64,000 bases of DNA, taken from the IMG/VR virus record IMGVR_UViG_3300021426_000004, positions 32,001 to 96,000 of that record, one strand, 5' to 3'. The notes under the pieces were generated by a model, which was not told the origin of the DNA, ran no database searches, and saw nothing but the letters and a program-made list of their open reading frames with translations. This document shows, piece after piece, positions 27,855 to 47,007 of the stretch. Within the stretch, counting starts at the first letter, position 1, and each line of letters starts with the position of its first letter. The stretch is from a virus (taxonomy: Duplodnaviria > Caudoviricetes). The position numbers were made by a program, and so were the translations under genes.

Positions 27855-30800
27855 TCACCACGCGTAAGACGCAGTGTTGAAGCCACTCTTTGACAATTCC
27901 TTAGTAAATTCTTTGCCGATTTTCTGTGCGAGAGCAGAAATATCCTGATCGTTATCAATCTTAGCTTCGTTAATCGTAATGTTAACATCGCCGTAATTGT
28001 TTGTTGTGGTTCCATACATGGAAGGATCAATATGAGTCATAGTAGGTGCTTTCACGTAAGTGAATGCATCGAGCATTGCTCTCATATTAGCCCTGTCTTC
28101 AGCGTTCAGGAATGCTTCCGGTTTTTGCGGAGATCCGTGTACCATAGCAAGTCCTGTATAATCTACTTCTCCACCTTCAGAGAATCCAAAGGTTTTTCTA
28201 AGATTATCAACAAAAGAAGCAGCAGCTTTTACCGTTGCGTTTGCAACAGAAGCCACGCTGGATGAAGAAGAAGTTGAAGCTTTTTTTGATGCACTTGGAA
28301 AGTCCATATGTGTAGCAGCACTATAATACTTTCCGTACTTTTTCAGTGCAATTTTATTCGCCTCTTCTACTGTATAAGCTTCGACAGTCCAATTAGTTTT
28401 ATTTCCTTTTTCATCATATATATCCCAAATCTTTTTTGATCCTCCGCCAGAAGGCTTTCCACTTCCACTGCTTGATCCTCCACCGCCAGAAGATGGAGCA
28501 GGAGTAGGCGCAGGAGGCGGAGCAACATACCCAACACCCTTATAATCTGAGTCATACTCATAAGGTATAACACTTCTGTCTCTATTGTAGACATAATCGC
28601 TTATAGTACCACCAAAGTCATAGTTTCCAAGACCGGCAATATTTACATTAAATGTCCAGTCCTTCAGATCGTTTATTGTATCAATAATCTCATGATTATC
28701 ACTAAATGTAGCATCATCTATCATCGAAGCTGTAAAGGAATCATATAATTCTCCGGCTCGATACAAATAGCTTTCCCGTCCTGTATCTGAAAGCTTAAGA
28801 TATTCATCCTGAGTTTTCAGCAGTTCAAGGAACCCATCTCTGGATTGCATGGATTCATCTACTTGATCCCAATAGGTTCTCAGTTGACCAAGCATGGTAT
28901 ACCATGTGTCTTCCCAGCCGTTGATTAATTGCTGACGCTGTTCATCCGAAGACTTCTTAAAGTCTTCGTTATATTCAGCGTTCCAGTTTACAAAGTCTTC
29001 AAACGATCCGCTTAATAACCCATCGATAATATCTTTGAAGTTATTGATATTGGAAAGCAGTTCAGTCAGATTTTCCTGATATGTTGCCGCATAATCGTCA
29101 ATAGCCTTGGACTGATCGTTCAAGGATTGGATTTCTGCATTGGCAACATCCTGGGCATTCTGCATTGCCTGTTCCTTTTCCATCTCCTGGATCTTACGAC
29201 GGAGTTCGTTTGCTTCTTTTGTTCTGGTTGTATCTTGGCTGATTAAAGCTAATTGCCTTCTGTATTCAGCCAGCTCTTCATCCTTAGCTTCCTGATCCAT
29301 CATCTTCTTACGGAAGTTGACTCTTTCGTTAATCAGGTTTTTCTCTTCATTCAGTGTTTGCTTTTTCTTATCAAGAGTCTTCTGTTCCAGCGCCCATTGC
29401 TGTTGATAGTTCTTGGAAATAACAGCAAAGATATTATTCTGCATTGTTACTGTTGCAGAAAGCATATTCCTTTGCTTTTGAATCCAGGCACGAATAGCTT
29501 TATCGGCTTCGTTTTCAACGGCAATACGAGCTTTACGGATAGCATCTTGATTCTTCTCGATAAGCTCAGTATTCTTTTCAATTCTGTTATTAGTATCTGC
29601 AAGCTTTTCTTCCCAGGTTGTAATCTCTTTCGTAATCTCTTTGTACAGTTCTGGGAATTCTTTGGATTCGTTCAGCTGCTCTTCTAAATCTTTGATATGA
29701 TTCTGAATACTGTCTCTTTGATCTTCAAGGATTTTTCCTTCCCATTCAAGAGCAGTACCGTAATTAGTAAGCTGACCATTGTTTTGATATCTTGTCTGAT
29801 CATACTGCACAAGCTTTTGCTGGTGCTGAGAGAGATCGTAAGTTTCAGCAAAGGTTTCTTTCAGATTAGTAAATTTAGCCTTCTCAATAGCTTGTAATGC
29901 TTCCTGCCATTCATTCTTAAGAGAAGCAACATTCTCTTTTGTGGAACGAATAGTATCTTCGAGTTCTCGCCATTGTTGGCCTCCCTCTGTAATCTTACCG
30001 CTATTCTGCAAAGCAAGGTAATCTTCAAGAGCATTCTGCTGGTCTTTCAGCCGATCTGAAGCATTGCGGGCTTTCTCTTCAAGAATATTCTCGTAATTGA
30101 CGAAGTCATCATTACGAATAAATTCCTTTTCAGCTTCGCTTAACAGTTTCAGTTCATGCTCAAGAATAGAACCGCTGTCCTGATGGGCCTGAGTAAGTTC
30201 AGAAATCAAAGACTCTTCGATAGCCTGCTGATTGGAAAGAATAGAAGCTTCGTATTGAGCACTTGCTTCTTCCAACTCGTACAGAGTCTGAATAGCGCTC
30301 TGCCGTGCCGGGTCGCTTTCCTTCATTCCATCGATCTGCTTTTTAACTTGAGCAATAGCTGCATCGGTCATCTCTTTCATTTGACGATTGGTATCAATCG
30401 TACCTTCAAGAGTTCCACGATACTTTGTAAAATCGTTTACAGATTCATACATCTGCCCATAAGTATCAAGCATATTTGCTCTATGCTCAAGAGGCGCTTT
30501 CTGATTCTGAAGATCTTCAGCGATCTGTGAGATCCGAGCTTCCTGTAAATCAATAAGATCAGAAGCCATCTGGTTCTGAAGTTCAGCGTTCTCTTCTCTC
30601 ATTGCCCAGATCTTATCCCGTGTTTGAATCCAGCTGTCAGAGTTCTCTGTAAATGTTTTGAGCAGGTTTTCCCATTCCGTAATTTGTTTATCGTTTAAGT
30701 GAATTTGTTTACGGGTTTCTTCGATGGTCTGCTCCATAATACCTTCGTAGCTTTCAAATTGACCGCTCTTCTGATATCTTGCAGCCATCTTGGAAAGCAT

Positions 30801-33800
30801 ATTAAGATTATGACTACCACGCTTATCCTCGTTCTCTTGTTTCTGCTCAACAATAGTAATACGTTTAGCACCAAGATCGTTAATCGTATTTTTAATGTTT
30901 TCAAGATTTTCTTCGTATTGCATCAACTGTTCATTGGCTTTGTTCCAGTCATCAGAACCTCTCTCCAGTGTGGCGAGCTGGTTCTTAAGCTCCTGGATGC
31001 TTTGAGCGTATGCGCTTCTTAATCTTTCTTGGTTGGCAATCTGTTGATCGATATTGCTGCCATAATTATCATAATCGTTAGTAAAATCAAGATACTTTTC
31101 CTGGATCTCAAGCATTTTGGATTGATGCTCAATTTCGGAGATGCGTTGCTTCTGTTTTTCAAGAAGCTTATCGGTTGCGGATTTACCGCCACCTCCGCCG
31201 CCTCCGCCACCTTTATTATTATACGATCCGCCACGTCCGCCGCCTTTAACTCTTGCAGTTTTAAAGGTGCTAGAATCTGCAACGACTTTAACATCACCGT
31301 TTCCTTCTTTATCACTTTGTGCTATAACGCGAACATGTGCTTCTGCCAATATTCCGTTGAAAATTTCTAAAGCGGCTGCTAACGATTCATTATATTGTGC
31401 CACAACAGCCGCCAACTGACTGAAATCCAAATCTCCTGTTTGTGGATCGGTAATCATATTAATCTTGGGACGAACTTCAAATGGTTGAGCATTAATTTCG
31501 TCCAGTGCTTGTTGCACTAAAGGTTGGAGCATTTCTGTTCCAAAGTTTTCTTGAATAGAATCTTCAAGCAACTTTGAATATTCAGTTGCTTCTTCTTTTG
31601 TCCATTGTTCTATGTCTGACTTATCAAAACCGATTTTACCAAATTGTTTTACGGCAACTTGATCTTTTGCTATCTGTTTACCGGTTTTGCCAGTGCTTTT
31701 CTGAGCTGCTGTAATAGCATCTTGATAATCTTTTGCTTGTTTTGTTAACTGTGCAATTTCTTTCTTTTGGGCGAGGCCGCCTTTTGCCAGCTCACCCATT
31801 GATTTCGCAGCTTTTGAATTTGCTTCGCCATATCCTTTTGCTTCAACAGCAGCTGTCTTTAAAGCAGCTTTTGTATCTGTTAATCTATCTTTGATTATTG
31901 CTTCTTTTTCAGCATAATCAACAGCATTTTTATCAAGAGAAAGATAAGCATCAATTAATTCATCAAGCCCTGTCGCAGCACTTGTGAAGTCTTTTTTCAT
32001 ATCTTCGCTGGCTTTACCGTATTTATCTTGATATGTTCCATCTTCTATAGATTGAATCATATCATAAGCGCCTTGAATTTTATCTATCTGAGTTATTCCA
32101 TCATATCCTTGAGCATACCTTTGCATGCGAAGTGTTGCATAGCTTTCTTCGGGCGCCGTTAATGTATAGTTTTGATCTTTTGTTCTTTCTGCAATATCAG
32201 AACCAACAACAGCAGCATAATCGTTGTAGAATTGTGGATTAGTTATTGGATTATATAAGGACGCTGCATTATAAATCTCGTCTCTTGTTTTATATCCAAA
32301 GTCTGCATATGCAGCAGTTTGCATAGCATTATATCTGTTTATCTTTTCTTGATCTCCTGGTAAATAATCTGTACTGCCACCGTAATGGTTCATGATAGAG
32401 TTATATTCATCTTGTATTGCAAGATAATCCTTTTGATTTTGAGTTAATCCATTAAACGCTTGTTGGTAAAGCTCGTTATTGCCTTTTCTTAACTCATCAA
32501 TCCTGTTAGTATCACCGCTGAGAATTACTCTTTGAGCTTGTTCAATTTCATATGGAGTTTTCGAACGCTGTAAACCATAGGCAAGGTTTTCTCTGTCAAT
32601 ATCTTGTGTAGTGCCAATTGGTTCAAATTCTCCAAACGCCATTCTGTCAAACCAGTTTTGAAACTCAGGTGTTGCTGCATAACGTTGTCCAGTATCTTTA
32701 CTCGTCCAATATAATGCTCCTGTTGTTTCATCGTATTGATACGGTTGATAAATGGCATATTTGTTTATTTCTTCTAACGCATCTTTAACTAAAATAGGAT
32801 TTGTTTTTGTTTTATATCCCATTTTTGCAGCTTCTTGTTGTGCGTAATCAACACCCATCGTTTTTGCAAGTTGGGTGAGCCGTCCAGCCGTTTGTTCTCT
32901 TTGATCTTGAATTGCTCTATCTGCATTAGCTCTAGCTTCTGTCATATTTGCTTCTATACGAGCTTTACTCCATCCTGGATTCAGGCTCATTAAAGCATTC
33001 ATTTGTTCTTCCGAAGTTCCATTTTGAAGCATAGCTACTTGCTGTTCAAAATTATAATTATCAGACTCCATTTGAAGCTTAGCTTTAATCTCAAATTGTC
33101 CGCCCTTTTTAAGGTTCTCAATTAACTGAGTTGTTCCTTGAAGAACTTTATTAGCACTTTCAAGATCGTCGATTCCAGCAACAGCAATCTTAACATCAAA
33201 GTCTCTCTTAAGATTGAGTCCTTCGATATCAGTCCGCTGTGCTTCTGTCATATTTTTATATCTATCAATTTCAGCGCCATAAATACTATTAACAGCATCA
33301 TACTGACTTTTAGTCCAATTATTTGCTTGAGCATATTCAGCCAAAGACTTATAATCACTTGACATTGCTTTATCGGCAAGATCTGCGATTTCTTTCTTTG
33401 TGTATTGCGTCAATCCAGTATCTGGTTTTAATGAATTTTTGCTGATTGACTGATTGATGTATTTCTCAATCTCTTCAGAAACTTCGCCATTTTCATATGC
33501 TTTTAATATCTCATCGGTCATATCACCGAATATATTTTGCATATTTTTATATACTACTTCAAATACATCATCATTCTTAAATTCAGAGGCCCATGCATTA
33601 TCAGCTTCCATTGCGCTCATTGCTGTTTTTACAATATCTACAGGTTGTGAATATCCGATCTTTGCTTTGCTTGCAATATCTTGAAACTGTTCCCAAGTGA
33701 TTGAAGGATTTTCGCCTGTTGCCATCACATAAGCAGATAACAGTTCAGGAGAATTCGCAAGAACATTAGCAAACTCTTGAGCTCTGTCATTTTCTTCGTA

Positions 33801-36800
33801 GGATTTCTTAAGTTCTGACATATTTGTTGCTGTAGACACAGCAGCAATTAAATCTTCTCTTTGTTGATTGATTGGTCTTTTCTTTCTTAAATCAATTAAT
33901 GAAGCATCAACAGCGTTATCAACAGATGTTCTGTATTGAGCTATCTCTTCAGGAGTATATCCTTCAAGAAGATAATTTGAACCTTTTTTCTTCAGGTTGT
34001 CAATTTCAGCTGAAATTGCGGAAACATTCAATAAGTCACCAATGAAATACTTATCTTTTATATCTCCGTTTTCATCAGTTATCATCTTGAAAAATTTATC
34101 AGTAAAAATATTTTGTATAGTACTTTCACTAACAGTGTCTGTTGCCAAATCGCTTAAATTCCACTGTCCAATCAACTCTTTGATATAATCATTATTAAAG
34201 GTACGTCTCTGAGCATCATATGTTTCTTCATTGCTAAAATCTAATTTAAAACGATTTTTCCAAAAACTATCGTAAGCAGCTGCAATGATTCTTTGATCTG
34301 AAGCTTGTAAATCTTTAACTTTCTTAGGATCTGTACCAAGCAAAGATAACATTGTTTCATCGTTTTTGTAATATGATCCAATGATTTTTTTAGCAACGTC
34401 ACTCTTATTAAAAAGATTAACAAAACCAGTGGCTTTATCAAGCGTTGGATTATTACTTTCACTAAAAATATTTTGTGATGTACTAAAGTTATCAATTATT
34501 TCATGAGATTGTAAATCGCCATTTTCATCATAATATGTTGTGTCTGCACCAGCTTCGGATAAATATTTTATTGCTTCTCGATCTAAATGACCATAATCAA
34601 ATCCACCAATAACAGTTTCATCAAACTTTTTATTGTATTCTTGTTGTCCATAAACTTCTTGATGTTGTTTGGTCATTTCATCTGTTTCTTTGTGTATTCT
34701 TGCTGCTTCGGCATCGGCAGCGTCAGATGCCTTAGTCAAAGCGCTAGAAAACTCAGAAAGATTCGTTGTTGCATTTTTAACTTCTGGTGCAATGGTAGGG
34801 AAGGCATTCCCTAAATCATTCATAGCAGAAATTAACTTTGCTCTTGCATCTTTTTCTGATATTGTATTTCCAGATTCGGTTGCTTTTAAATATTCATCAT
34901 ATTTCTTTTGAGCTTCACTTATAATATCTCTTCTATTATTTAAAGAAGACATACTCTTCGAATAATAATTATTTACATTAGCAAGATCAGCAGCGCTTTC
35001 ACGGGCGAATCTTTCTTCATCTGTTTCGACGGAGCCGCCGCCGAAAATTGTTTTTAATACGCCTGTAGTACCAATACCTGCAACTAATCCTACAATAGCA
35101 GATAATCCAGCAAGGATTGGCATTTTCAACTTTAATGCAAGAATTGCTCCACCTATTGCTGTTAACGTGCCGACAATAACGCCACCTGCTTGTTCAAAGG
35201 CATCCGATCCGGCCGCAAATTGAAGGAATCCTGAAACAATATCAAGAGCTCCTGTAACAACACCGCTATTGACAAAACTTTCAACAACCGCATCCCACGA
35301 ACTTTTAAGCGTATCTAAAGAAGCGGCGAGACTTTGCATAGCAATTTCATATTTTGATTGTGTTATTCCACCGCTATTTGAAGCAAGGTCAAGATATTCT
35401 TTTATCCTTTTGCCGCCGTCTTCGGACATACCTTCCATTAATGTTGAGAAGATATTTGTCTGTCTAGTTCCAGCTAAAGCGTTTGTAACAACGGATTTCT
35501 GAACATCACTCAACTTTTCCCATACACCAGCAAGATCACTTAAAACTTCGTATGCCGTGCGCATCTTTTGTCCGTTCTTATCTGAAAACAGATCTATACC
35601 AACAGACTTTAATGCTGCTTCAGCATCTGAAGCAGTTGTTTTTTCACCGTTTTGATCTGCCGTCCAGCCCGAAAGACTAATTCTTCTCATACGAGTAAAG
35701 ACAGTCTGCAAAGCCGTACCAACCTGAGTGCCGCTCAACTGAGTATCGGAAGTACCAACAGTGAGCAATGCAGTTAATTCTGCATAAGATACACCTGCAA
35801 CTTTAGCAGATGCAGCAGCCTTTTGCATACCTTTACCAATTTCGGCGGCGGTAGTTGCAGCGCTATCACCAAGCGCGACAAGTGCGTCCATTGCCTGTTC
35901 TGCAGAAGGCACCAGGTCATTCTGAAGAGCAGTTGTAATAATCTTTGTAGCTTCAGTAACGTTTAGTTTTGTAACTGTAGCAAATTTAATGATAGATTCT
36001 GTTCGATTTGAAACTTCTTGATCGCTTAATCCTTGACGATATAAAGCAGCTTCAGTGTTAGCAACATTGGAAACAGAAGTACGAAGTCCAATAGCTTTAT
36101 TAATTGTATTAGAACGAACAGAAGCCATATCACTATCTGACTTAAGCGTAATGGCCTGTATTTCGTTCATAGAAGCATCAAATTCTTTTATAAAACGCTT
36201 GGTTTCTTGGAGAGCTTTTTGAAAAAGTTGACGACCAAGACGAGCTGCAACTCTTTCAATTGTTTGACCAAACACAGCTGCAGTTGCACTGGCTTTGCCA
36301 AACGGACTTTGAAGCTGAGAAAGATCCTGACTTGCTCTTTGCGCTTCTTCTCTAAGTTTCGCGAGGTTAGTCTGAGCTTCAGCGTAACCATTGTCGCCTT
36401 CTTTTAATCCAGCAGTTTCTTTTTCGTAAGCTCGAAGCTTAGATTGCGCTTCAACGTTCCTATTTTCAGCTTGAGTAAGAGCGTTATTATAGATGCTGTA
36501 AGCACGAGTAGCAATATTTCTAGAAGTGCCAAAGCGATTCATACGCATCATATTGCCACGTCGAGTAATCTGATTTACTGCATAGCCTTGTTGTAATTGA
36601 CGAAGATCGTTTTGTGATTCAAAATCTTTTTTATACTGTTCTGTTACTTTTTCTACTTCACTGTTATACTCATCTTCAACTTGTTTTTTGTAATCTGATA
36701 AACGAGCATGAGGATTTGTCAGACGATCTTCTTTAAATTGTTGCGCGGCTTTTCTTGCATTTAACTCTTTTTGCGCATTTAATACATTAATACGCTCTTG

Positions 36801-39800
36801 TAAACCCTTGTTATATATTTCATCTTTCGATGCTTGAGTTATTCCGAGTTTTAATTTTGCAGCATCGATTTGATTTTGATCAAACTGATTTAAGGATTCG
36901 TTGCTTAACAAATGTTCTGCCTGAGAAAGCCGAGATGTCAATTCTGTTCCGCTTATAAGTCCTCGTTCAAACAAATCTTTAGCGTCGACTTTAGCATTGT
37001 TAATCTGTTCAATAAAAGAAAGCCTATTTTTTGCTAAGTCCATTGGCTTTGCGGCTTCTTTATCAACCATCGCTGTTAAAGAATTGAATGTATTTCCGAG
37101 AAGTTCTGTTGCAGATCCTTGTAATTGTTTAATATACTGTTGAACAAATGGTTCGTTTAGTTTCTCTTGTTGAGTAGCTGCATCCAAATTTTTTGTCATT
37201 GCTTCAACTTCTGAAACTTTTAAATCCATTTCCTCTTCTTGTTTTTTTCTAAGATCTTGCGTAGCTTGCAATCTGGATGTTGTTTTTTCTCTTGCAGTTT
37301 CAAGTCTTTCAGCAGCAAGTTTATCGTTTCCTTCTTTTATAGCACTGCTAATAGTAAAGAATTCATCGCTAGAAGCTAATTCTGGATGTCTGTTGAGAAG
37401 TTTTGTTCTTTCTCTTTTAGCAATTCCTTTTTCTTTTGTAGTCAAACCCGAGGAATTAATAGCATCAGTATATCCTTGAATACGATCTAATATATCTTTT
37501 TCTTCTTTGAGTTCTCGTTCTTGACTTTTTAAACTGTTTATGCGACCAGATGCATCTTCTATGTCTTGGTTTCGTTCGTCTATTCTTTCTGATAAATAAT
37601 CTTTATCTCTTCGAATATTATTAAATCTTTCCTGTACTTTATCATAAGATTCAACTAAAGCTCGACCGGCTTTTGTTCCGCTGTTTCCTGCAATGGACCT
37701 AAATATATCTTCTCCAAAGTTTTCAGTGTCCAGCACAACTGCTTGTGAAAGGCCAAGATCCAAATTGCTCATTGCTGCATCATATCGAGCTTGTAAGTCC
37801 TTTGCCTGAGCTGTATTACCAGCAATTTCCTCTTGTTTGGATTGCTCAAGAAGTAAGTTTGCTTGATTATACTTTGATCTCCATATTACATCGTCTGGAG
37901 TCCTTTTATCTCTTTCTCTTGTTCTTTTGTTAACAAAACTTTGAATTTCTTCATCTGCTTCAATTGCTTCATTATATCTGTCGTGCAACCATAAAGCATC
38001 TGTTATACTTCCTGTATTAAATTTTCCGCTTTTAGAACTTCCTTTTCTGTTAACAATTTGATCTGCAACACTTTCCCTAATATCTCCAAACATGTTTTCA
38101 CGGAGAAATTTAGCTGCATCAAGCACGTCTCCGATAGATGTATTTTCTTTTGCAAGTTGTTGAATTCTATTAATCGACCTAGATACATTATCATCACTTA
38201 AACTTAAATCAGCATCAGAAAAAATCATTTTTCGAATTCGATTCTGGTATGGTTCTATAATGCCAACTTCACCAATGTTTACTCCATTTTTTTGAAGTTG
38301 ACTATCATAAATAGCCTGCTGTACTCTCCATTTTTTCCAATCGTCGTCTGATGGTTTCCAATAATTCTTAATATCTGCCATCACTTCGCGTTGGTCATCT
38401 TTTCTGCTTCTGAATCTTAAGTCGTATGAACCAGTCATACCTACGTCTTCATCTGTTGTTAATTTTTTCCCTTTACCTGTTATTATCATATTTCCAGCAG
38501 CAGTTTTTGGACCTTTTCCTACGTCGCTTGATTCTATGCCAACGACTTGCCAATCGCTTTCTGGATAAATGCTTAATAATCCTTCTCCACCTAAAAATTG
38601 ACGAAGAGCGTAATATCTGTCGTTTAAGTTTGTTCCACTTGTTTTTAACGTTTGGCGTTCAGCATCTGTTAATCCTCTGCTTCCTGCAGGAAGTTTAAAT
38701 CCTTTTCCTTGCTTTTTTAAACCAAGATACTCGTCAAAAACATCAAGAGCTTCTTTTTGTGCTGCTTTCAGCTGATCTTCTGACAATGGTGCTGAAGCAT
38801 TCATTCGCAGTTGCATAAAGTGCTCAATTGCTGTATGTGCAGCTTGCCCAATTTCTGTACTAGCAAGCGTTGAATTATTTTCACGTCCAGTAATTAAGTC
38901 TTCCATAAAGTTTGCTGGATTATATGCAAATTTCGACAATGAGCTAAAAGAAAGTCTTGGCATATTGTCAATCATTCTTTTTTTCTCATCTACAGTCAAC
39001 AAATTAAATGACTCCAAAAGTCTAGCAAGTTTAGTATTCTGAGTGGGTTCACTCATTTCTTCAAACGCTTTAGGAGTTGTTTTTGCAGATAATAACTTTG
39101 TAAAGTCTAAACCTCCGACAACGTTTGGCAACTTCATTGCTTCTAATGTTGTGAAAATCGAATCATTTACGCCTTCATCGTGCATATGCGATGCAGACAT
39201 TGCCATACCAGACAATGCGTTTTGAATAACCTTGCCGCCTAATCTATTAACTACTCTTTCGGCTATTGCTCTGTTTGATCCTTTTTCGTTAAATGCTTTA
39301 CCTTGTCTGTCTCTTTCGTTTTTCACTAACGCTGCTTGTTCATCGATTGCAGCAGAGCGCAATTCTCCTAATTTAGCAATTGTTTCTTCGTCTATGGCAA
39401 GATAATCTGCATTTAAATATCCCATCCAAGTATCACGTAACGCAGATTGCATACGACCTAAAGCAGTTGATTCATCCTTTTTCCCTAACACAGAATCAAA
39501 AATATAATTCCAGTCATAATTTTTATTAATATCTACGCCTCTTTGTTTAGCAAAATACCGAGAAAGCATCATAGAACGTACATTGCTAGACATTGTATTA
39601 AACGGAAGATTGGTTGACCAGAATTTAGCGCCAAGCAAACCATCGCTGCCTTTAGCGCTTTCGATTAAATTTGGAATGGATACGTTTCCATATTTATCTC
39701 TGTTTTTATCGACAATATGGAAAAACTCCGTAAATGCTCTGTATTTTGATAACACTTCTAATTGTTCCGGAGTTGTATCCATTTCTATACCAGTCTTATT

Positions 39801-42800
39801 TCTAATAGAATTAACACTGTATTGTGATTCTGCAGCAGACATAGCTTTTAAAACAGTTGAATCCCAAGGAACTTGCATTGCGTTACGAATAGTTGCGTCA
39901 GGACCACCCATAAAATACCCATTCTGCATTGCTGGAACGAGTACTTTCATAACATCTATACCTTTATTTAAATCAATATCATCTGCACCAAAGACGTTAT
40001 GTTTAAATTCTTCTTTTATTTTATCTGCTTCAGCTTGAGAAAGGCCTCTTTCGTCTATTTTCTTTATACCTAAATCATAAGCTTTTTTCAAAATCTCTGC
40101 CGCTGCAACTTTTTCGCCTTTTTTATTTTTACCTGTATATGCAAGACCAATCAAATCCATGACGTCTCCATCGAAATCAGCGTCTTGCAGAAGCTGCATA
40201 ACTGGAGATGAAGGTGAAATATAAAAAGCATCCGGATCAAAACCAGAATCTGAAAGATACTTTTGAATTGCTTTTTCACGTTGAGAGTTTCCGACAGATA
40301 TATTTTTAACTTCTCTTGCAGAACGTGTCGTTGCAGGATACCGACTAATTCCTACAACTGAAGCCATGAGCTTCTGAAAAGCAATTTCGTCATCATCCAT
40401 AGTCAGCAAACCAAGTGTTTTTCTTTGGTCTTCAGACATTTGAGAGTACAGTGTATCGTAATATGATTTTGTTTCTCCGTCTTTAATTATGCCTGTGCCG
40501 CTTTCGTTTATGTTTTTTAATCCAGATATAATTGCATTAAAGAAATATGGTTGAGCCATTGCCCTGGAAGTTTCTAAGGATCTAGGTAAAATTGTATCTC
40601 CTTGCGAAATTCTCGTAAGCATTCCAAGACGGAATCCTTGTATTTCGTCCTGAATGCGCTTATCTCCCATGACAGCACCGTTTGTTGCTAATATTAAATC
40701 TCTCATTTCTGAGTTACCAGCAAAGACGGTATCAAGAGCTCCCTGCATTGTTCCAACACGGGCATACTCGTCTAAAAATGCTCGTGTTGTCATTTCGACA
40801 AATTCCGGAGAATTACCAAGAATCTGCGATGCTTGTCTGGACATCCAGTGGATTCCGCCTTGAGCATCTTTCATTGTTTTGTTTGCAAAAATTTTTCCAC
40901 CTGAACGTTCAATTTCTTCTGCAATATTCTTTTTAATTTCTTCTGTAGGAAGTAGTTTTCCATTATCATCTTTATATTTGATTCCGGCGTTTTTTACATC
41001 GGACATACTAAGTAAAAGATCCAAATCGTCTGTTATTTCTTCTACTCTTCCGTCAGGACCGATTGTTTTTACGGAGCCACCAAAGGGAGCCAGAAAACTT
41101 GATAAATTCAATGGGCTTAAGGCTGTTTTAACACCTGGCATGCGTGCTTGAAATCCTCTTGGAACATACTTGCTGTTTATGTAGCTTGTTCCGTTCATAC
41201 CAGACCCGCCAATTTCTGAAGGTGTTTGTCCAAATTTTGCGGCATCTTCAAGATCAAACAGTCCAATTTTTAAGTTCTTTGGCAGTTTGGTGCCAAATAA
41301 ATCTTGAATGCTTTCGCCAGATGTTGCAGGTTTACTCGCGTATTCTAGCGTTTTTGCTGCTTTATTAAATGCTTCGTCTCCGACGAAGTGCAAATTTTTT
41401 AGTCCGCCCCAAAAAACACTTTTATCTCTTTCTCCTGTTTCTTGATTTATAACAGGCGCAATGGCATTATATAAAGGATCAGCAACAAACTCCAAACCTA
41501 ATCCTTTATGTGCTCGCGAAAACGTATAATGTGTTTGTTTTCCGTGAGGAGACTTTGTAAGTCCTTCGTCAATGTATTTCGCATATTGTTGCATTAAATC
41601 GTTTCTTGTTTTTTCATCAAGACCTGGATCTGCAAGTCGCGGATCAACTTGAAGATAAACAATATCATCAATTGCATCGTTATTATTCGGCATCTTACCA
41701 GTTTTACGATGTCTAAATATGTTTTCCAGATGCAAACTATGGTCAATAGACATATAACGATCATCTCTGTCTGATTGACCGTAAAACTTTGTTCTATCTC
41801 TATTTAAATCAACACCGGCTTGTAAATCAGATAAAGTATAATTTGCAACTTCGTATCGTTTAATGTTTGGAGAAAACGGTATTTTTGCCTCTGTGTCACT
41901 AAATTGATTTAATGGAATATTTGATACTTTTGCTCCACGATTAGGCGTGAGCCAACTGAAATTATCGGATAGAATGCGTGCTGCATTCATATTACCTAAA
42001 AAAGGTTTATTGTTTTTTCTAGCGATTCTATCCCAAAATTGTTTATCATTAACATCTGTAATGCCATACATCGGCATACCTTTTGCAGAAGAAATGATCG
42101 CATCATATAACTCGCTGGAAAGGTTGTTGATTAACCCCCGGGTTAGTCCATTCCTCATTCCAATCGTTCCGTTTAATCGAACAGCTACTCCCGATTTTTC
42201 AGCAGCTGACAAAAAGTAAGGATTGGTTTTAAGTAAATTTTCAACTATAGCCTTTTCTTTGTTTGTTAAAGCTTCGTTGCTGTTTGGCTCGGATATAGCG
42301 CCTTTTGCCGCGTGAAAATTTTGAAATTGAGATGGAAGCATATTTGCAAAGCTATCAAAAAGATGTGCTTGTTTTTCAGATCCTCTTGATATTTGCGACA
42401 TAAAACCTTTACGTTGTGTTTGGTCTGTTCCTTGGAACATTAATATTTCTGACAAAGCATCTGCTGCTTTTGAAGTTCTTGACATTCCAAGTTGTTCAAA
42501 AATACCATTATCAAAAAGTTTATTTTTTATTCCTGCTTTAAAAGAAGCTGTATCCATCAGTGTTGTAGCAGATCTTTGAAAATCAGCAACTTGTGTTACC
42601 AATGCACGCATATTTGGCATTAAATTGGTTGCAGTTTTCAATAAACTCTGGCCTGCTTTTTTCCCGCCAACAGAAGACATTAAAGTAGATGAAGCAGTAA
42701 CAAATGAACGCATTTCATTTATTGTTGCTTCAATTCCTCTGCGAAGCATTTCTCTTTCAGCGTACAAGTCACTTAATTGCTTTTCTGAAAAAATAGGTGA

Positions 42801-43028
42801 ACTATCTATCTCTTGGTTTATCTTATTAATTCTGGAAAAAGAATTAACAATTGAGTCCTTCCCTTGAGAAAAAAACTCATCAGAACCGGAAATCATTTCT
42901 CCAGCCGAATTTTGTATTTGTTTAATATTATCAAGTACGCCCTTTGAAGCATCTTTTATACTTGAAAACTCTTTAATTGCGCTTGAACCATCAACATCAA
43001 GAGCAATACGAATAGTTGTATCAACCAT
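27855..43028 (-). CDS. Tape measure polyprotein with N-terminal two-barrel RNA polymerase and PD-(D/E)XK nuclease domains
   Basis: 5057 aa between tail chaperones and Dit; RNAP motifs FQARMPGVK (aa 626-634), SMSDVK (K679), SRQ, RYP (aa 896), DADFDGD (aa 949-955); nuclease motifs GSYD (D1536), DIK (1552-1554), QQAIY; TP901-type TMP domain at ~35300-36200; coiled coils; C-terminal FSEGGEVDYTGLAMVHG..PEAFLN. Confidence 0.9.
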   Translation of the reverse strand: MVDTTIRIALDVDGSSAIKEFSSIKDASKGVLDNIKQIQNSAGEMISGSDEFFSQGKDSIVNSFSRINKINQEIDSSPIFSEKQLSDLYAEREMLRRGIEATINEMRSFVTASSTLMSSVGGKKAGQSLLKTATNLMPNMRALVTQVADFQRSATTLMDTASFKAGIKNKLFDNGIFEQLGMSRTSKAADALSEILMFQGTDQTQRKGFMSQISRGSEKQAHLFDSFANMLPSQFQNFHAAKGAISEPNSNEALTNKEKAIVENLLKTNPYFLSAAEKSGVAVRLNGTIGMRNGLTRGLINNLSSELYDAIISSAKGMPMYGITDVNDKQFWDRIARKNNKPFLGNMNAARILSDNFSWLTPNRGAKVSNIPLNQFSDTEAKIPFSPNIKRYEVANYTLSDLQAGVDLNRDRTKFYGQSDRDDRYMSIDHSLHLENIFRHRKTGKMPNNNDAIDDIVYLQVDPRLADPGLDEKTRNDLMQQYAKYIDEGLTKSPHGKQTHYTFSRAHKGLGLEFVADPLYNAIAPVINQETGERDKSVFWGGLKNLHFVGDEAFNKAAKTLEYASKPATSGESIQDLFGTKLPKNLKIGLFDLEDAAKFGQTPSEIGGSGMNGTSYINSKYVPRGFQARMPGVKTALSPLNLSSFLAPFGGSVKTIGPDGRVEEITDDLDLLLSMSDVKNAGIKYKDDNGKLLPTEEIKKNIAEEIERSGGKIFANKTMKDAQGGIHWMSRQASQILGNSPEFVEMTTRAFLDEYARVGTMQGALDTVFAGNSEMRDLILATNGAVMGDKRIQDEIQGFRLGMLTRISQGDTILPRSLETSRAMAQPYFFNAIISGLKNINESGTGIIKDGETKSYYDTLYSQMSEDQRKTLGLLTMDDDEIAFQKLMASVVGISRYPATTRSAREVKNISVGNSQREKAIQKYLSDSGFDPDAFYISPSSPVMQLLQDADFDGDVMDLIGLAYTGKNKKGEKVAAAEILKKAYDLGIKKIDERGLSQAEADKIKEEFKHNVFGADDIDLNKGIDVMKVLVPAMQNGYFMGGPDATIRNAMQVPWDSTVLKAMSAAESQYSVNSIRNKTGIEMDTTPEQLEVLSKYRAFTEFFHIVDKNRDKYGNVSIPNLIESAKGSDGLLGAKFWSTNLPFNTMSSNVRSMMLSRYFAKQRGVDINKNYDWNYIFDSVLGKKDESTALGRMQSALRDTWMGYLNADYLAIDEETIAKLGELRSAAIDEQAALVKNERDRQGKAFNEKGSNRAIAERVVNRLGGKVIQNALSGMAMSASHMHDEGVNDSIFTTLEAMKLPNVVGGLDFTKLLSAKTTPKAFEEMSEPTQNTKLARLLESFNLLTVDEKKRMIDNMPRLSFSSLSKFAYNPANFMEDLITGRENNSTLASTEIGQAAHTAIEHFMQLRMNASAPLSEDQLKAAQKEALDVFDEYLGLKKQGKGFKLPAGSRGLTDAERQTLKTSGTNLNDRYYALRQFLGGEGLLSIYPESDWQVVGIESSDVGKGPKTAAGNMIITGKGKKLTTDEDVGMTGSYDLRFRSRKDDQREVMADIKNYWKPSDDDWKKWRVQQAIYDSQLQKNGVNIGEVGIIEPYQNRIRKMIFSDADLSLSDDNVSRSINRIQQLAKENTSIGDVLDAAKFLRENMFGDIRESVADQIVNRKGSSKSGKFNTGSITDALWLHDRYNEAIEADEEIQSFVNKRTRERDKRTPDDVIWRSKYNQANLLLEQSKQEEIAGNTAQAKDLQARYDAAMSNLDLGLSQAVVLDTENFGEDIFRSIAGNSGTKAGRALVESYDKVQERFNNIRRDKDYLSERIDERNQDIEDASGRINSLKSQERELKEEKDILDRIQGYTDAINSSGLTTKEKGIAKRERTKLLNRHPELASSDEFFTISSAIKEGNDKLAAERLETAREKTTSRLQATQDLRKKQEEEMDLKVSEVEAMTKNLDAATQQEKLNEPFVQQYIKQLQGSATELLGNTFNSLTAMVDKEAAKPMDLAKNRLSFIEQINNAKVDAKDLFERGLISGTELTSRLSQAEHLLSNESLNQFDQNQIDAAKLKLGITQASKDEIYNKGLQERINVLNAQKELNARKAAQQFKEDRLTNPHARLSDYKKQVEDEYNSEVEKVTEQYKKDFESQNDLRQLQQGYAVNQITRRGNMMRMNRFGTSRNIATRAYSIYNNALTQAENRNVEAQSKLRAYEKETAGLKEGDNGYAEAQTNLAKLREEAQRASQDLSQLQSPFGKASATAAVFGQTIERVAARLGRQLFQKALQETKRFIKEFDASMNEIQAITLKSDSDMASVRSNTINKAIGLRTSVSNVANTEAALYRQGLSDQEVSNRTESIIKFATVTKLNVTEATKIITTALQNDLVPSAEQAMDALVALGDSAATTAAEIGKGMQKAAASAKVAGVSYAELTALLTVGTSDTQLSGTQVGTALQTVFTRMRRISLSGWTADQNGEKTTASDAEAALKSVGIDLFSDKNGQKMRTAYEVLSDLAGVWEKLSDVQKSVVTNALAGTRQTNIFSTLMEGMSEDGGKRIKEYLDLASNSGGITQSKYEIAMQSLAASLDTLKSSWDAVVESFVNSGVVTGALDIVSGFLQFAAGSDAFEQAGGVIVGTLTAIGGAILALKLKMPILAGLSAIVGLVAGIGTTGVLKTIFGGGSVETDEERFARESAADLANVNNYYSKSMSSLNNRRDIISEAQKKYDEYLKATESGNTISEKDARAKLISAMNDLGNAFPTIAPEVKNATTNLSEFSSALTKASDAADAEAARIHKETDEMTKQHQEVYGQQEYNKKFDETVIGGFDYGHLDREAIKYLSEAGADTTYYDENGDLQSHEIIDNFSTSQNIFSESNNPTLDKATGFVNLFNKSDVAKKIIGSYYKNDETMLSLLGTDPKKVKDLQASDQRIIAAAYDSFWKNRFKLDFSNEETYDAQRRTFNNDYIKELIGQWNLSDLATDTVSESTIQNIFTDKFFKMITDENGDIKDKYFIGDLLNVSAISAEIDNLKKKGSNYLLEGYTPEEIAQYRTSVDNAVDASLIDLRKKRPINQQREDLIAAVSTATNMSELKKSYEENDRAQEFANVLANSPELLSAYVMATGENPSITWEQFQDIASKAKIGYSQPVDIVKTAMSAMEADNAWASEFKNDDVFEVVYKNMQNIFGDMTDEILKAYENGEVSEEIEKYINQSISKNSLKPDTGLTQYTKKEIADLADKAMSSDYKSLAEYAQANNWTKSQYDAVNSIYGAEIDRYKNMTEAQRTDIEGLNLKRDFDVKIAVAGIDDLESANKVLQGTTQLIENLKKGGQFEIKAKLQMESDNYNFEQQVAMLQNGTSEEQMNALMSLNPGWSKARIEANMTEARANADRAIQDQREQTAGRLTQLAKTMGVDYAQQEAAKMGYKTKTNPILVKDALEEINKYAIYQPYQYDETTGALYWTSKDTGQRYAATPEFQNWFDRMAFGEFEPIGTTQDIDRENLAYGLQRSKTPYEIEQAQRVILSGDTNRIDELRKGNNELYQQAFNGLTQNQKDYLAIQDEYNSIMNHYGGSTDYLPGDQEKINRYNAMQTAAYADFGYKTRDEIYNAASLYNPITNPQFYNDYAAVVGSDIAERTKDQNYTLTAPEESYATLRMQRYAQGYDGITQIDKIQGAYDMIQSIEDGTYQDKYGKASEDMKKDFTSAATGLDELIDAYLSLDKNAVDYAEKEAIIKDRLTDTKAALKTAAVEAKGYGEANSKAAKSMGELAKGGLAQKKEIAQLTKQAKDYQDAITAAQKSTGKTGKQIAKDQVAVKQFGKIGFDKSDIEQWTKEEATEYSKLLEDSIQENFGTEMLQPLVQQALDEINAQPFEVRPKINMITDPQTGDLDFSQLAAVVAQYNESLAAALEIFNGILAEAHVRVIAQSDKEGNGDVKVVADSSTFKTARVKGGGRGGSYNNKGGGGGGGGGKSATDKLLEKQKQRISEIEHQSKMLEIQEKYLDFTNDYDNYGSNIDQQIANQERLRSAYAQSIQELKNQLATLERGSDDWNKANEQLMQYEENLENIKNTINDLGAKRITIVEQKQENEDKRGSHNLNMLSKMAARYQKSGQFESYEGIMEQTIEETRKQIHLNDKQITEWENLLKTFTENSDSWIQTRDKIWAMREENAELQNQMASDLIDLQEARISQIAEDLQNQKAPLEHRANMLDTYGQMYESVNDFTKYRGTLEGTIDTNRQMKEMTDAAIAQVKKQIDGMKESDPARQSAIQTLYELEEASAQYEASILSNQQAIEESLISELTQAHQDSGSILEHELKLLSEAEKEFIRNDDFVNYENILEEKARNASDRLKDQQNALEDYLALQNSGKITEGGQQWRELEDTIRSTKENVASLKNEWQEALQAIEKAKFTNLKETFAETYDLSQHQQKLVQYDQTRYQNNGQLTNYGTALEWEGKILEDQRDSIQNHIKDLEEQLNESKEFPELYKEITKEITTWEEKLADTNNRIEKNTELIEKNQDAIRKARIAVENEADKAIRAWIQKQRNMLSATVTMQNNIFAVISKNYQQQWALEQKTLDKKKQTLNEEKNLINERVNFRKKMMDQEAKDEELAEYRRQLALISQDTTRTKEANELRRKIQEMEKEQAMQNAQDVANAEIQSLNDQSKAIDDYAATYQENLTELLSNINNFKDIIDGLLSGSFEDFVNWNAEYNEDFKKSSDEQRQQLINGWEDTWYTMLGQLRTYWDQVDESMQSRDGFLELLKTQDEYLKLSDTGRESYLYRAGELYDSFTASMIDDATFSDNHEIIDTINDLKDWTFNVNIAGLGNYDFGGTISDYVYNRDRSVIPYEYDSDYKGVGYVAPPPAPTPAPSSGGGGSSSGSGKPSGGGSKKIWDIYDEKGNKTNWTVEAYTVEEANKIALKKYGKYYSAATHMDFPSASKKASTSSSSSVASVANATVKAAASFVDNLRKTFGFSEGGEVDYTGLAMVHGSPQKPEAFLNAEDRANMRAMLDAFTYVKAPTMTHIDPSMYGTTTNNYGDVNITINEAKIDNDQDISALAQKIGKEFTKELSKSGFNTASYAW

Positions 43029-46332: not shown

Positions 46333-47007
46333 TTACACACGTTTAAAATGATATTTTTTTGCTCGAATATTGTTTTTTATTGATTGATACACAGATCCTC
46401 TGGGAAGATTCATTTCTTTTTCTGCGGCTAGCTGAGAATCATAAATACATCCAGTTTCTATACATTGAACTTTGGTTGATTTATGATTGTTTGCGCCCAT
46501 CATACTTGGACGTTTATTGTGCCGACATGCATCTAAAGCAGCTAAGGAGTTCGGATTTTTTCCAGCTCGTATATTTCCTTGACGTATTTTTTCTTTTGTT
46601 TTATCTGACAAATGTTTTCCTTTACGAGAAGCAACGCTTGCCTCGATAGCTTTTTCAGGACGTTTATTCCAAAAAGGATTGAGATTTCCTTTTAAGCCCC
46701 TATTGTTATATCCGCCTTCGGCAAAATTATACCCATAGTCTCTGTTTGTTGTTTGAAGCTTTTTAATTAACATTTTTTCTGTATTAGAAGCTTCGTCTTT
46801 AGTTAAATTCGATGCAAAAATTTCATGATCAAAATTATCCCAACCATATTTTTCAATCGCACTATTGAAATGCCAATTATAATTATATCCTTTTCCATTT
46901 TTCCATCTATTGTTAGGATTTGTTTTTTTAGACATTCCAACATATATTTTTCCATTAATCTTGTTTATATGTATATAAACATAATATGGTCCATTTTCTA
47001 TAATCAT
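46333..47007 (-). CDS. GIY-YIG family homing endonuclease with NUMOD-type DNA-binding tail
   Basis: 224 aa; YYVYIHINKINGKIYVG, GYNFAEGG, KGKHLSDKTKEKI, VQCIETGCIYDS. Confidence 0.88.
   Translation of the reverse strand: MIIENGPYYVYIHINKINGKIYVGMSKKTNPNNRWKNGKGYNYNWHFNSAIEKYGWDNFDHEIFASNLTKDEASNTEKMLIKKLQTTNRDYGYNFAEGGYNNRGLKGNLNPFWNKRPEKAIEASVASRKGKHLSDKTKEKIRQGNIRAGKNPNSLAALDACRHNKRPSMMGANNHKSTKVQCIETGCIYDSQLAAEKEMNLPRGSVYQSIKNNIRAKKYHFKRV

What the first reader, a model, noticed from the sequence alone, without database searches (positions are those of the whole stretch)
38200..38960. Intact RecB/AddB-type PD-(D/E)XK nuclease fused between the RNAP and the tape-measure domain
Seen: RLSFSSLSKF...IGQAAHTAIE...VVGIE...GSYD (D1536)...ADIK (D1552/K1554)...QQAIY, which is the full RecB-family motif set. 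The usual Fe-S cysteines are absent (YNP where CP is typical). Inference: an injected nuclease travels with the polymerase. It could nick or resect the incoming genome to give the RNAP a single-stranded or open template, process genome ends, or attack host DNA. The RNAP + nuclease + TMP triple fusion is the most likely undescribed system here.
Basis: partly seen in the sequence, partly recalled or inferred. Interest (0 to 1): 0.88.

Follow-up and report, generated by a model that had tools for sequence, protein, structure and literature searches.

The report
Cysteine-free nuclease inside phage tape-measure
A 148-kb animal-gut phage carries, inside its 5,057-residue tail tape-measure protein and next to an RNA-polymerase-like module, a conserved RecB/Cas4-type DNA nuclease domain without the usual iron-sulfur cysteines, so it probably injects a DNA-end-cutting enzyme with its genome, an arrangement I could not find described.

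Summary
Window 38088-38993 (minus strand, aa ~1346-1647 of the 5057-aa ORF 27855-43028) encodes a real PD-(D/E)XK nuclease domain.

- It passes Pfam's PDDEXK_1 cut-off.
- It folds confidently (pLDDT 87).
- Its best structural matches are ACE1, AdnA, AddB, Dna2 and RecE nuclease domains (Z 10-12.7) and 61 phage RecB/Cas4-like exonucleases.
- E1499, D1536, D1552-x-K1554 and Q1570xxxY1574 are invariant in nine homologous giant tape-measure proteins.
- All 13 SNPs against bovine-gut strains are synonymous.

The Fe-S cysteines are absent. The whole 5057-aa protein has no cysteine, whereas the phage's separate replication-module Cas4-like nuclease keeps four.

The ORF is a genuine tape-measure protein (PF10145/TIGR01760, followed by Dit and Tal). 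The RNA-polymerase identity of the N-terminal part rests only on motifs and a language-model lead.

A tape-measure-fused virion RNAP is already known (Thermus phage P23-45). I detected no nuclease in that protein, and I found no paper describing a nuclease in a tape-measure protein.

The most likely role is a DNA-end/ssDNA nuclease ejected next to the leading genome end. This is inferred, not shown. The scan has not seen this on other DNA. I class it as a new variant of a known kind.

The parts
27855..43028 (-). Giant tape-measure protein gene, 5057 aa, with no cysteine
   Evidence: Single ORF. PF10145 and TIGR01760 hits. 12 PHROG TMP families. Nine homologs of 5041-6925 aa share the layout. 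0 Cys against 1.8% in the rest of the proteome.
38088..38993 (-). PD-(D/E)XK (RecB/Cas4/AddB-like) nuclease domain, aa ~1346-1647
   Evidence: Pfam PDDEXK_1 above the gathering score. AF2 pLDDT 86.9. Fold matches ACE1 Z 12.7, AdnA 12.3, AddB 11.4, Dna2 10.6, RecE 10.2. BFVD phage exonucleases. 13/13 SNPs synonymous.
38916..38957 (-). N-terminal helix motif RLSFSSLSKFAYNP (aa 1358-1371). N1370 sits where Cas4/AddB-type nucleases have the first Fe-S cysteine.
   Evidence: An hhalign register against the phage's own Cas4-like nuclease puts its Cys opposite N1370. That alignment is statistically weak.
38817..38852 (-). Helix motif IGQAAHTAIEHF (H1398, E1402, H1403 invariant)
38526..38546 (-). Strand motif VVGIESS (E1499 invariant)
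38418..38435 (-). Motif TGSYDL with the first catalytic aspartate, D1536
38361..38381 (-). Motif MADIKNY with catalytic D1552-x-K1554
38307..38324 (-). Motif VQQAIY (Q1570xxxY1574), typical of RecB-family nucleases
39129..41591 (-). RNA-polymerase-like module, aa ~480-1300, with DADFDGD at nt 40164-40184, RYP at aa 896 and FQARMPGVK at aa 626. Identity not established here.
   Evidence: Motifs. ESM-feature search: 27 of 30 hits are PF05183 RdRP clusters, score 0.90-0.91. Best-conserved part of the protein. No Pfam, HMM or fold confirmation.
35130..36185 (-). TP901-type tape-measure core, aa ~2282-2633
   Evidence: TIGR01760 E 1.8e-27. PF10145 E 2.6e-30.
26622..27728 (-). Distal tail protein (Dit) directly downstream. 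It fixes the giant ORF at the TMP position of a siphovirus-type tail module.
   Evidence: phrog_33 E 2.1e-17
20572..26616 (-). 2014-aa minor tail (Tal-position) protein
   Evidence: phrog_6211 E 4.8e-27

Best explanation
The stretch encodes a genuine and probably active metal-dependent PD-(D/E)XK nuclease of the RecB/Cas4/AddB/AdnA structural type. It has lost the 4Fe-4S 'iron staple'. It is built into the conserved N-terminal cargo part of a 5057-aa tape-measure protein, directly after an RdRP/YonO-like polymerase-like module and before the helical ruler.

Proposed mechanism:
1. In the virion, the TMP N-terminal part lies at the head-proximal end of the tail, next to the leading DNA end.
2. 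At infection the TMP leaves through the tail ahead of the DNA.
3. The cysteine-free cargo refolds without needing cofactor insertion and stays tethered at the entry site.
4. There the nuclease threads a free single-stranded DNA end through its active-site channel and cuts it. It thereby processes the first-entering end of the phage genome by strand resection or trimming, possibly to give the neighbouring polymerase a single-stranded template or to prepare the end for recombination.

Shown here (computationally): the fold, the catalytic motifs, purifying selection, the position in a real TMP, and the cysteine-free composition.

Inferred: delivery into the cell, catalytic activity, and the substrate.

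Rough odds:
- real PD-(D/E)XK domain: 0.93
- catalytically active: 0.85
- acts on the incoming phage DNA end: about 0.45
- specifically feeds the polymerase: about 0.2
For: Domain identity:
- Pfam PDDEXK_1 above the gathering score.
- AF2 pLDDT 86.9.
- PDB matches ACE1 Z 12.7, AdnA 12.3, 3l0a 11.4, AddB 11.4, Dna2 10.6, RecE 10.2, MGME1 10.1 and Cas4 9.5.
- 61 phage RecB/Cas4-like exonuclease models at E <= 1e-3.

Likely activity:
- H1398, E1402, E1499, D1536, D1552, K1554, Q1570 and Y1574 are invariant in 9 homologs at 42-60% identity.
- The domain is as conserved (0.57 mean identity, no gaps) as the polymerase-like part (0.62), and more conserved than the TMP core (0.40) or the ruler (0.18).
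- 13/13 SNPs are synonymous.

TMP context: PF10145/TIGR01760; Dit and Tal downstream, portal and TerL upstream.

Adaptation to ejection:
- 0 Cys in 5057 aa, against 46-92 expected from the structural module's 0.9% or the rest of the proteome's 1.8%.
- P23-45 gp96 also has 0 Cys in 5002 aa.
- The phage's replication-module PDDEXK_1 nuclease keeps a Cas4-type Cys set.

From the literature:
- TMP N-termini contact the tail completion protein at the DNA end, and the C-termini sit at the baseplate (10.1101/2024.12.10.627806).
- The N-terminal RNAP of P23-45 gp96 is in virions as part of the full-length TMP and is proposed, from ChIP-seq and promoter mapping, to transcribe the pre-early genes (PMC10770324).
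- ACE1, AdnA and AddB cut ssDNA threaded through a narrow channel, and ACE1 alone cuts neither dsDNA nor circular ssDNA (PMC12094033).
- The crAss-like virion RNAP gp66 transcribes ssDNA efficiently but dsDNA poorly (10.1101/2020.03.07.982082).
Against: - There is no experiment of any kind. The phage is uncultured and known only from animal-gut metagenomes.
- In the nearest structural relatives the Fe-S cluster is needed for structural integrity and DNA-end binding (PMC12094033). Its absence could mean altered or lost activity.
- Those relatives cannot attack duplex DNA without a helicase, and no helicase domain was found in the TMP.
- Resecting one's own genome is risky unless the ends are redundant, and the real genome termini are unknown. 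The 127-bp terminal repeat may only reflect a circular assembly.
- The polymerase identity of the neighbouring module is not established.
- Nothing shows that the N-terminal part of this TMP reaches the cytoplasm.
Confidence: 0.5

Rival explanations
1. Injected weapon against other DNA. The nuclease degrades host chromosome, resident plasmids or prophages, or superinfecting phage DNA, to shut off the host or remove competitors. This is what has been proposed for the DNase domains of injected 'polyvalent' proteins.
For: Injected multidomain proteins with DNase domains are a known theme. Degradation of host or rival DNA is one of the roles proposed for them (PMC5512222, read). The catalytic residues are conserved.
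Against: The domain is part of a TMP that probably stays anchored in the envelope, so its reach is limited. Its nearest structural relatives need a free ssDNA end and cannot cut duplex or circular DNA alone (PMC12094033). Only about three copies per virion are expected, from the TMP trimer seen in 80alpha (10.1101/2024.12.10.627806). No immunity or self-protection feature was seen.
Confidence: 0.15
2. DNA-end guard or anti-defence module. The domain binds the leading genome end, with or without limited trimming. This occupies the end against host AddAB/RecBCD-type nucleases or end-sensing defences, as dedicated end-protector proteins do in other phages.
For: The domain has the fold that AddB and AdnA use to recognise broken DNA ends (PMC12094033). 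The TMP N-terminus lies next to the DNA end (10.1101/2024.12.10.627806). The 80alpha paper also mentions ejected proteins that protect DNA after injection.
Against: Full conservation of the D...DxK...QxxxY catalytic set is not needed for mere binding. In AddB, end binding depends on the Fe-S cluster, which is absent here.
Confidence: 0.1
3. RNA-processing nuclease coupled to the polymerase. The domain cuts nascent pre-early transcripts (5'-end processing, 3'-end formation or termination), as PD-(D/E)XK RNases do in Rai1/DXO or in viral cap-snatching endonucleases.
For: The domain directly follows the polymerase-like module. Rai1/DXO and bunyaviral endonucleases appear among the weaker fold matches (Z 4-5.4). 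The P23-45 authors suggest an unusual termination mechanism for the gp96 vRNAP (PMC10770324).
Against: The DNA-end nucleases score far higher (Z 9-12.7) than the RNases (Z about 4-5). The QxxxY motif is typical of the RecB/Cas4/lambda-exo DNA nucleases (from my own knowledge of the family).
Confidence: 0.07
4. Assembly-time role or inactive relic. The domain acts during tail or virion assembly, for example by trimming the DNA end at head-tail joining, like the virion-associated REase-fold head-completion nuclease of T4-like phages. Alternatively it is a structural spacer that no longer cuts.
For: A virion-associated REase-fold nuclease needed for packaging is known (PMC7824862). Loss of the Fe-S staple could indicate loss of the ancestral function.
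Against: Invariant catalytic residues and purifying selection argue against a relic. A folded ~35-kDa domain is unlikely to be active inside the tail tube (inference).
Confidence: 0.08

Closest known systems
Thermus phage P23-45 gp96, a tape-measure protein with an N-terminal virion RNA polymerase (PMC10770324)
   Same: Giant TMP (5002 vs 5057 aa). A DFDGD motif in the N-terminal part (aa 779 vs 951). Enzymatic cargo N-terminal to the ruler. No cysteine at all in either protein. Both phages also encode further non-virion RNAP-like proteins and a stand-alone RecB-family exonuclease.
   Different: No detectable sequence or profile similarity between the two N-terminal parts. gp96 shows no PD-(D/E)XK domain by Pfam or by this family's HMM, and carries an M23 peptidase that was not found here. 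The host and habitat differ (hot-spring Thermus vs animal gut, probably Bacillota).
Fe-S 'iron-staple' nuclease domains: AddB, AdnA, Cas4, ACE1 (PDB 3u44, 6ppu/9np6, 8d3l, 9iab)
   Same: Best structural matches, Z 9.5-12.7 over 160-266 residues. Same D...DxK catalytic set, QxxxY motif, and N-terminal S-x-S...helix.
   Different: All four Fe-S cysteines are missing. The domain is not attached to a helicase, Cas1 or Argonaute, but to a tape-measure protein. Sequence identity is only 9-16%.
Stand-alone phage RecB-family/Cas4-like exonucleases, including this phage's own (P0014, genome 133614-134501)
   Same: Same fold and motif order. This is the most plausible evolutionary source of the domain.
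   Different: Those are 250-400-aa free proteins in replication/recombination modules, and P0014 keeps a Cas4-type Cys set. BLAST finds no similarity between P0014 and the TMP domain, so it is not a recent duplicate.
Injected 'polyvalent proteins' of phages and conjugative elements (PMC5512222)
   Same: One polypeptide with several enzymatic domains, delivered with the DNA to act at the start of infection. DNase domains are among them.
   Different: According to that survey, the DNases of polyvalent proteins are ParB-like and are not accompanied or replaced by other DNase folds. Tape-measure proteins are not mentioned. No MuF or processing-peptidase domain was found here.
Lambda exonuclease / RecE (cysteine-independent PD-(D/E)XK exonucleases)
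   Same: No Fe-S cluster. Same superfamily. RecE Z 10.2, lambda Exo Z 7.5.
   Different: Weaker matches than AdnA, AddB or ACE1. They work as toroidal oligomers, and oligomerisation of this domain could not be assessed.

Membership tests
PD-(D/E)XK nuclease superfamily, RecB-like branch (Pfam PF12705 PDDEXK_1) | Profile match above the curated cut-off | tested here: met
   24.7 bits against a gathering score of 22, E 2.7e-5, aa 1358-1581
PD-(D/E)XK nuclease superfamily, RecB-like branch (Pfam PF12705 PDDEXK_1) | Restriction-endonuclease-like alpha/beta core fold | tested here: met
   AF2 pLDDT 86.9. The leading PDB matches (ranks 1-23 in the VIA list) are all PD-(D/E)XK nucleases, Z up to 12.7. 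61 viral PD-(D/E)XK models at E <= 1e-3.
PD-(D/E)XK nuclease superfamily, RecB-like branch (Pfam PF12705 PDDEXK_1) | Catalytic D...(D/E)xK plus the QxxxY motif, conserved among relatives | tested here: met
   D1536, D1552, K1554, Q1570 and Y1574 (plus E1499, H1398, E1402) are invariant in 9 homologs
PD-(D/E)XK nuclease superfamily, RecB-like branch (Pfam PF12705 PDDEXK_1) | Metal-dependent nuclease activity | not testable with these tools
   Needs a biochemical assay
Cas4/AddB/AdnA 'iron-staple' nucleases | One N-terminal and three C-terminal cysteines binding a 4Fe-4S cluster | tested here: not met
   0 Cys in the domain in all 9 homologs and 0 Cys in the whole TMP. It is therefore not filed as a member, although these are the nearest folds.
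Phage tail tape-measure protein (PF10145 / TIGR01760) | TMP core profile match and gene position between the tail genes and Dit/Tal | tested here: met
   PF10145 E 2.6e-30 and TIGR01760 E 1.8e-27. 12 PHROG TMP families. Dit and a minor tail protein directly downstream.
TMP-fused two-barrel virion RNAP (P23-45 gp96 type) | DxDGD metal-binding motif in the N-terminal part of a TMP | tested here: met
   DADFDGD at aa 949-955, invariant in homologs
TMP-fused two-barrel virion RNAP (P23-45 gp96 type) | Homology to gp96, or a two double-psi beta-barrel fold | tested here: inconclusive
   No HMM or hhalign similarity to gp96. AF2 pLDDT 50, so the fold searches are meaningless. An ESM-feature lead points to PF05183 RdRP, 27/30 hits at about 0.91.
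Polyvalent injected proteins (Iyer et al. 2017) | MuF or other packaging/anchor domain plus a processing peptidase | tested here: inconclusive
   Pfam found no such domains in the four segments. About 3000 aa have no family assignment.

The most novel reading that the evidence does not exclude
The polymerase-like module and the nuclease form one machine, built like a helicase-nuclease (AddAB/AdnAB/RecBCD) but with a membrane-tethered RNA polymerase as the motor. While the TMP-anchored polymerase transcribes and reels in the leading genome end, the adjacent nuclease threads and cuts the displaced strand. This would create the single-stranded template that RdRP/QDE-1-like virion polymerases prefer, and would couple DNA entry, end resection and pre-early transcription.
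Probability: 0.12. Interest if true: 0.9.

Novelty: new variant of a known kind. Interest (0 to 1): 0.6.

Why it matters
Tape-measure proteins are known to carry cell-wall hydrolases and, in one studied case, an RNA polymerase. A DNA nuclease would add a third class of enzyme delivered at the tip of the incoming genome.

It offers a concrete, testable answer to an open question raised by crAss-like and related virion polymerases, which transcribe single-stranded DNA well and duplex DNA poorly in vitro: how do they obtain a template inside the cell?

The contrast within one phage is also informative. The replication-module nuclease keeps its Fe-S cysteines, whereas the tape-measure version has none. 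Together with the complete absence of cysteine in two unrelated 5000-residue polymerase-bearing tape-measure proteins, this suggests a general design rule for enzymes that must pass through a phage tail and refold. That rule would be useful for engineering phage-delivered protein cargo.

Tried and rejected
- Sequence searches of the nuclease domain against the PDB, by phmmer and by a 5-sequence profile, gave only chance-level hits. The fold search was needed.
- tblastn of the nuclease and polymerase-like parts against 50,697 phage records found no match.
- An exhaustive phmmer search of 1.84 billion representatives found only 7 hits, all giant TMPs or fragments. No stand-alone or differently fused close relative was seen.
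- IMG/VR scans with the protein and with the alignment found nothing. The metagenome scan gave one locus, L008, with the same layout.
- The polymerase-like part could not be confirmed. Its AF2 model had pLDDT 50. Foldseek and VIA searches with it were uninformative. HMM and hhalign against P23-45 gp96 and the phage's 906-aa and 939-aa RdRP-like proteins gave nothing. BLAST aligned only the LQxADxDGD motif.
- The idea that the TMP domain is a recent duplicate of the phage's own Cas4-like nuclease is rejected: BLAST shows no similarity. hhalign puts the motifs in register, but at Prob 1%.
- The trimer test of the nuclease domain (complex prediction, 3 copies) gave 'no answer'. It counts neither for nor against oligomerisation.
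- No RNA holder was listed among the sequencing runs, so there is no information on expression.
- The ESM Atlas search of aa 1-480 gave only unnamed clusters. The fold search 'atlas' library was unavailable.
- Repeats in the left 20 kb are mostly paralogous coding repeats and ribosome-binding-site-like junctions, not obvious promoters.
- The overlapping plus-strand ORF 38426-38698 is rejected as coding: all SNPs are synonymous in the minus frame.
Full report
**What is there**

The window is bases 32001-96000 of a 148,117-bp IMG/VR virus record. The finding lies inside one uninterrupted minus-strand ORF, 27855-43028, of 5057 aa.

| Motif | Residues |
|---|---|
| RLSFSSLSKFAYNP | 1358-1371 |
| IGQAAHTAIEHF | 1393-1404 |
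| VVGIESS | 1495-1501 |
| TGSYDL | D1536 |
| MADIKNY | D1552, K1554 |
| VQQAIY | Q1570, Y1574 |

**Is it more than chance?**

- Pfam's PDDEXK_1 model matches aa 1358-1581 at E 2.7e-5 and 24.7 bits, above the curated cut-off of 22. PHROGs gives a weak 'exonuclease' hit.
- AlphaFold2 on aa 1340-1650, with an alignment of nine relatives, gave a confident model: pLDDT 86.9, pTM 0.85, and an alpha/beta core flanked by helices.
- Foldseek and an independent all-against-all aligner both put the same group of nuclease domains on top. Restriction enzymes and RNases score far lower.

| PDB match | Z |
|---|---|
| ACE1, a Cas4-family enzyme | 12.7 |
| AdnA | 12.3 |
| Putative exonuclease 3l0a | 11.4 |
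| AddB | 11.4 |
| Dna2 | 10.6 |
| RecE | 10.2 |
| MGME1 | 10.1 |
| Cas4 | 9.5 |
| RecB | 8.7 |
| Lambda Exo | 7.5 |

- Against predicted viral structures, 61 matches at E <= 1e-3 are nearly all stand-alone phage PD-(D/E)XK, RecB-like or Cas4-family exonucleases. They include the RecB-family exonuclease of Thermus phage P23-45.
- Plain sequence searches against the PDB found nothing. The assignment therefore rests on the profile plus the fold.

**Conservation**

A word-indexed search of 5.8 billion proteins and an exhaustive phmmer search of 1.84 billion representatives found only nine full-length relatives and three fragments. The full-length relatives are 5041-6925 aa, all have PF10145, and all carry DFDGD and the nuclease at the same relative positions.

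At 42-60% identity the residues H1398, E1402, E1499, D1536, D1552, K1554, Q1570 and Y1574 are invariant.

Mean identity to the homologs varies along the protein:

| Region | Mean identity |
|---|---|
| Polymerase-like part | 0.62 |
| Nuclease | 0.57 |
| TMP core | 0.40 |
| Variable helical ruler | 0.18 |

Contigs from independent bovine-gut runs differ from the window at 13 positions in nt 37900-39200. All 13 are synonymous third-position changes in the minus frame. This shows strong purifying selection. It also rules out the overlapping plus-strand ORF 38426-38698 as coding.

**The host protein**

The ORF is a real tape-measure protein:

- PF10145 at E 2.6e-30 and TIGR01760 at E 1.8e-27, over aa ~2282-2633.
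- Twelve PHROG TMP families.
- Dit and a 2014-aa minor tail protein directly downstream, with portal and large terminase upstream.

The terminase is nearest to those of large phages of Bacillota: Clostridium phage c-st at 33%, and Bacillus and Geobacillus siphophages. The DNA occurs in animal, including bovine, gut metagenomes.

**The missing iron-sulfur cluster**

The domain has no cysteine in any of the nine relatives. The whole 5057-aa protein has none either. The rest of the phage proteome has 1.8% Cys, and the structural module has 0.9%. That gives 46-92 expected cysteines, and a chance of zero of about 3e-41 at the proteome rate. The homologs have 0-3 Cys in 5041-6925 aa.

P23-45 gp96 shows no detectable sequence similarity in its polymerase part, yet it also has 0 Cys in 5002 aa.

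The same phage encodes a second PDDEXK_1 nuclease in its replication module (295 aa, E 1.4e-21, genome 133614-134501). It lies between a primase-helicase and a Pol III alpha-type polymerase, and it keeps one N-terminal and three C-terminal cysteines of the Cas4/AddB type. The two nucleases are not recent duplicates. A weak hhalign alignment nevertheless puts all motifs in register, and places the Cas4 cysteine opposite N1370.

My reading, which is an inference: a protein that must travel through the tail tube and refold cannot rely on cluster insertion or tolerate cysteines. The tape-measure copy is therefore a cofactor-free version of the phage exonuclease fold.

**The neighbouring 'RNAP'**

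This could not be confirmed. The evidence for it is limited:

- The motifs FQARMPGVK (aa 626), RYP (aa 896) and DADFDGD (aa 949-955) are invariant.
- The RYP-to-DxDGD spacing is 55 aa. In the phage's own 906-aa protein, a weak Pfam RdRP hit, it is 52 aa.
- In a language-model feature search, 27 of 30 hits were PF05183 RdRP clusters, scoring 0.90-0.91.

The evidence that failed:

- Pfam found nothing.
- HMM and hhalign found nothing against gp96 or against the phage's two RdRP-like proteins.
- The AF2 model was poor (pLDDT 50), so the fold searches with it were meaningless.

I treat the polymerase identity as likely but unproven.

**How it probably works**

Four points from the literature bear on this:

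[quoted passage not shown] They are joined to the tail completion protein, which touches the DNA end. The C-termini sit at the baseplate, and the TMP is thought to leave with the DNA as a pilot (10.1101/2024.12.10.627806).
- The N-terminal RNAP of P23-45 gp96 is present in virions as part of the full-length TMP. The authors show it is an active RNAP, and ChIP-seq and promoter mapping assign it the pre-early genes (PMC10770324).
- ACE1, AdnA and AddB cut ssDNA threaded through a narrow channel. ACE1 alone cuts neither duplex nor circular ssDNA. In AddAB and AdnAB, a motor feeds the strand to the nuclease (PMC12094033).
- The crAss-like virion RNAP gp66 transcribes ssDNA and denatured DNA efficiently, but native duplex DNA poorly (10.1101/2020.03.07.982082).

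Putting these together, the most economical reading is a tethered nuclease that depends on a free ssDNA end and meets the first-entering end of the phage genome. There it would resect or trim a strand.

Two narrower versions are possible but unsupported by direct evidence. In one, the nuclease supplies a single-stranded template to the adjacent polymerase-like module. In the other, the polymerase acts as the motor, as the helicase does in a helicase-nuclease.

The rivals cannot be excluded. They are attack on host or competitor DNA, end protection against AddAB/RecBCD, RNA processing, and an assembly role or relic. Their weights are given above.

**Comparison with what is known**

- A TMP-fused virion RNAP is published, so the triple fusion is not categorically new.
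- I detected no PD-(D/E)XK domain in gp96, either by Pfam or by this family's HMM.
- The survey of injected polyvalent proteins reports only ParB-like DNases and does not mention tape-measure proteins.
- Four literature searches found no nuclease-bearing TMP.
- The domain fails the defining Fe-S feature of the Cas4/AddB/AdnA subgroup. It is filed only under the broader RecB-like PD-(D/E)XK branch.

**Verdict**

- This is a new variant of a known kind: enzymatic cargo in a tape-measure or injected protein.
- It is of moderate to high interest, mainly because it makes the template problem of virion polymerases testable and exposes the cysteine-free design of tail-delivered enzymes.
- The scan has not seen this element on other DNA.

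Noticed in passing
window 27855-43028 (-); L002:8288-23296: The whole 5057-aa tape-measure protein has no cysteine, where 46-92 would be expected. Thermus phage P23-45 gp96, which shows no detectable sequence similarity in the parts compared, also has 0 Cys in 5002 aa. The homologs have 0-3. This may be a general constraint on giant, enzyme-bearing tape-measure proteins.
   Followed up: partly
L006:17614-18501 (+), genome 133614-134501, outside the window: A stand-alone 295-aa PDDEXK_1 nuclease (E 1.4e-21) with Cas4-type Fe-S cysteines lies in the replication module, between a primase-helicase (L006:15138-16973) and a Pol III alpha-type polymerase (L007:2068-5238).
   Followed up: partly
L005:896-3616 (+) and L006:10307-13126 (+): Two further RdRP/YonO-like proteins are present: one of 906 aa (PF05183 E 7.7e-4, below the cut-off, with RYP...DYDGD) and one of 939 aa (PF05183 E 1.5e-12).
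   Followed up: partly
window 46333-47007 (-): A 224-aa homing-endonuclease-like gene (phrog_314, E 3e-27) is inserted among the head-tail and tail genes.
   Followed up: no
L003:3079-4233 (+): A tyrosine integrase (PF00589, E 4.4e-22) is encoded in this 148-kb phage, which suggests a temperate lifestyle.
   Followed up: no
   Followed up: no
window 61715-63517 (+): A 600-aa protein has a PcfJ-like domain (PF14284, E 1.2e-9). This family is known from conjugative plasmids.
   Followed up: no
genome ends (G000:C1:1-127 and 147991-148117): The 'direct terminal repeat' is exactly 127 bp. That equals a common maximum assembler k-mer (from my own knowledge), so it may only indicate a circular assembly rather than true physical ends.
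   Followed up: no
L003:6900-14400: Many small left-arm genes end or start at a repeated GGTGAAGTG(N)ATG junction, which looks like a Shine-Dalgarno site. They also share in-gene LKEQE-coding and CxxC-coding repeats, so they form paralogous small-protein families.
   Followed up: no
L007:7353-8393 and L007:8603-9154 (+): An RNA ligase with a PHA02142 OB-fold domain and a RuvC-like resolvase (just below the Pfam cut-off) are encoded near the right end.
   Followed up: no
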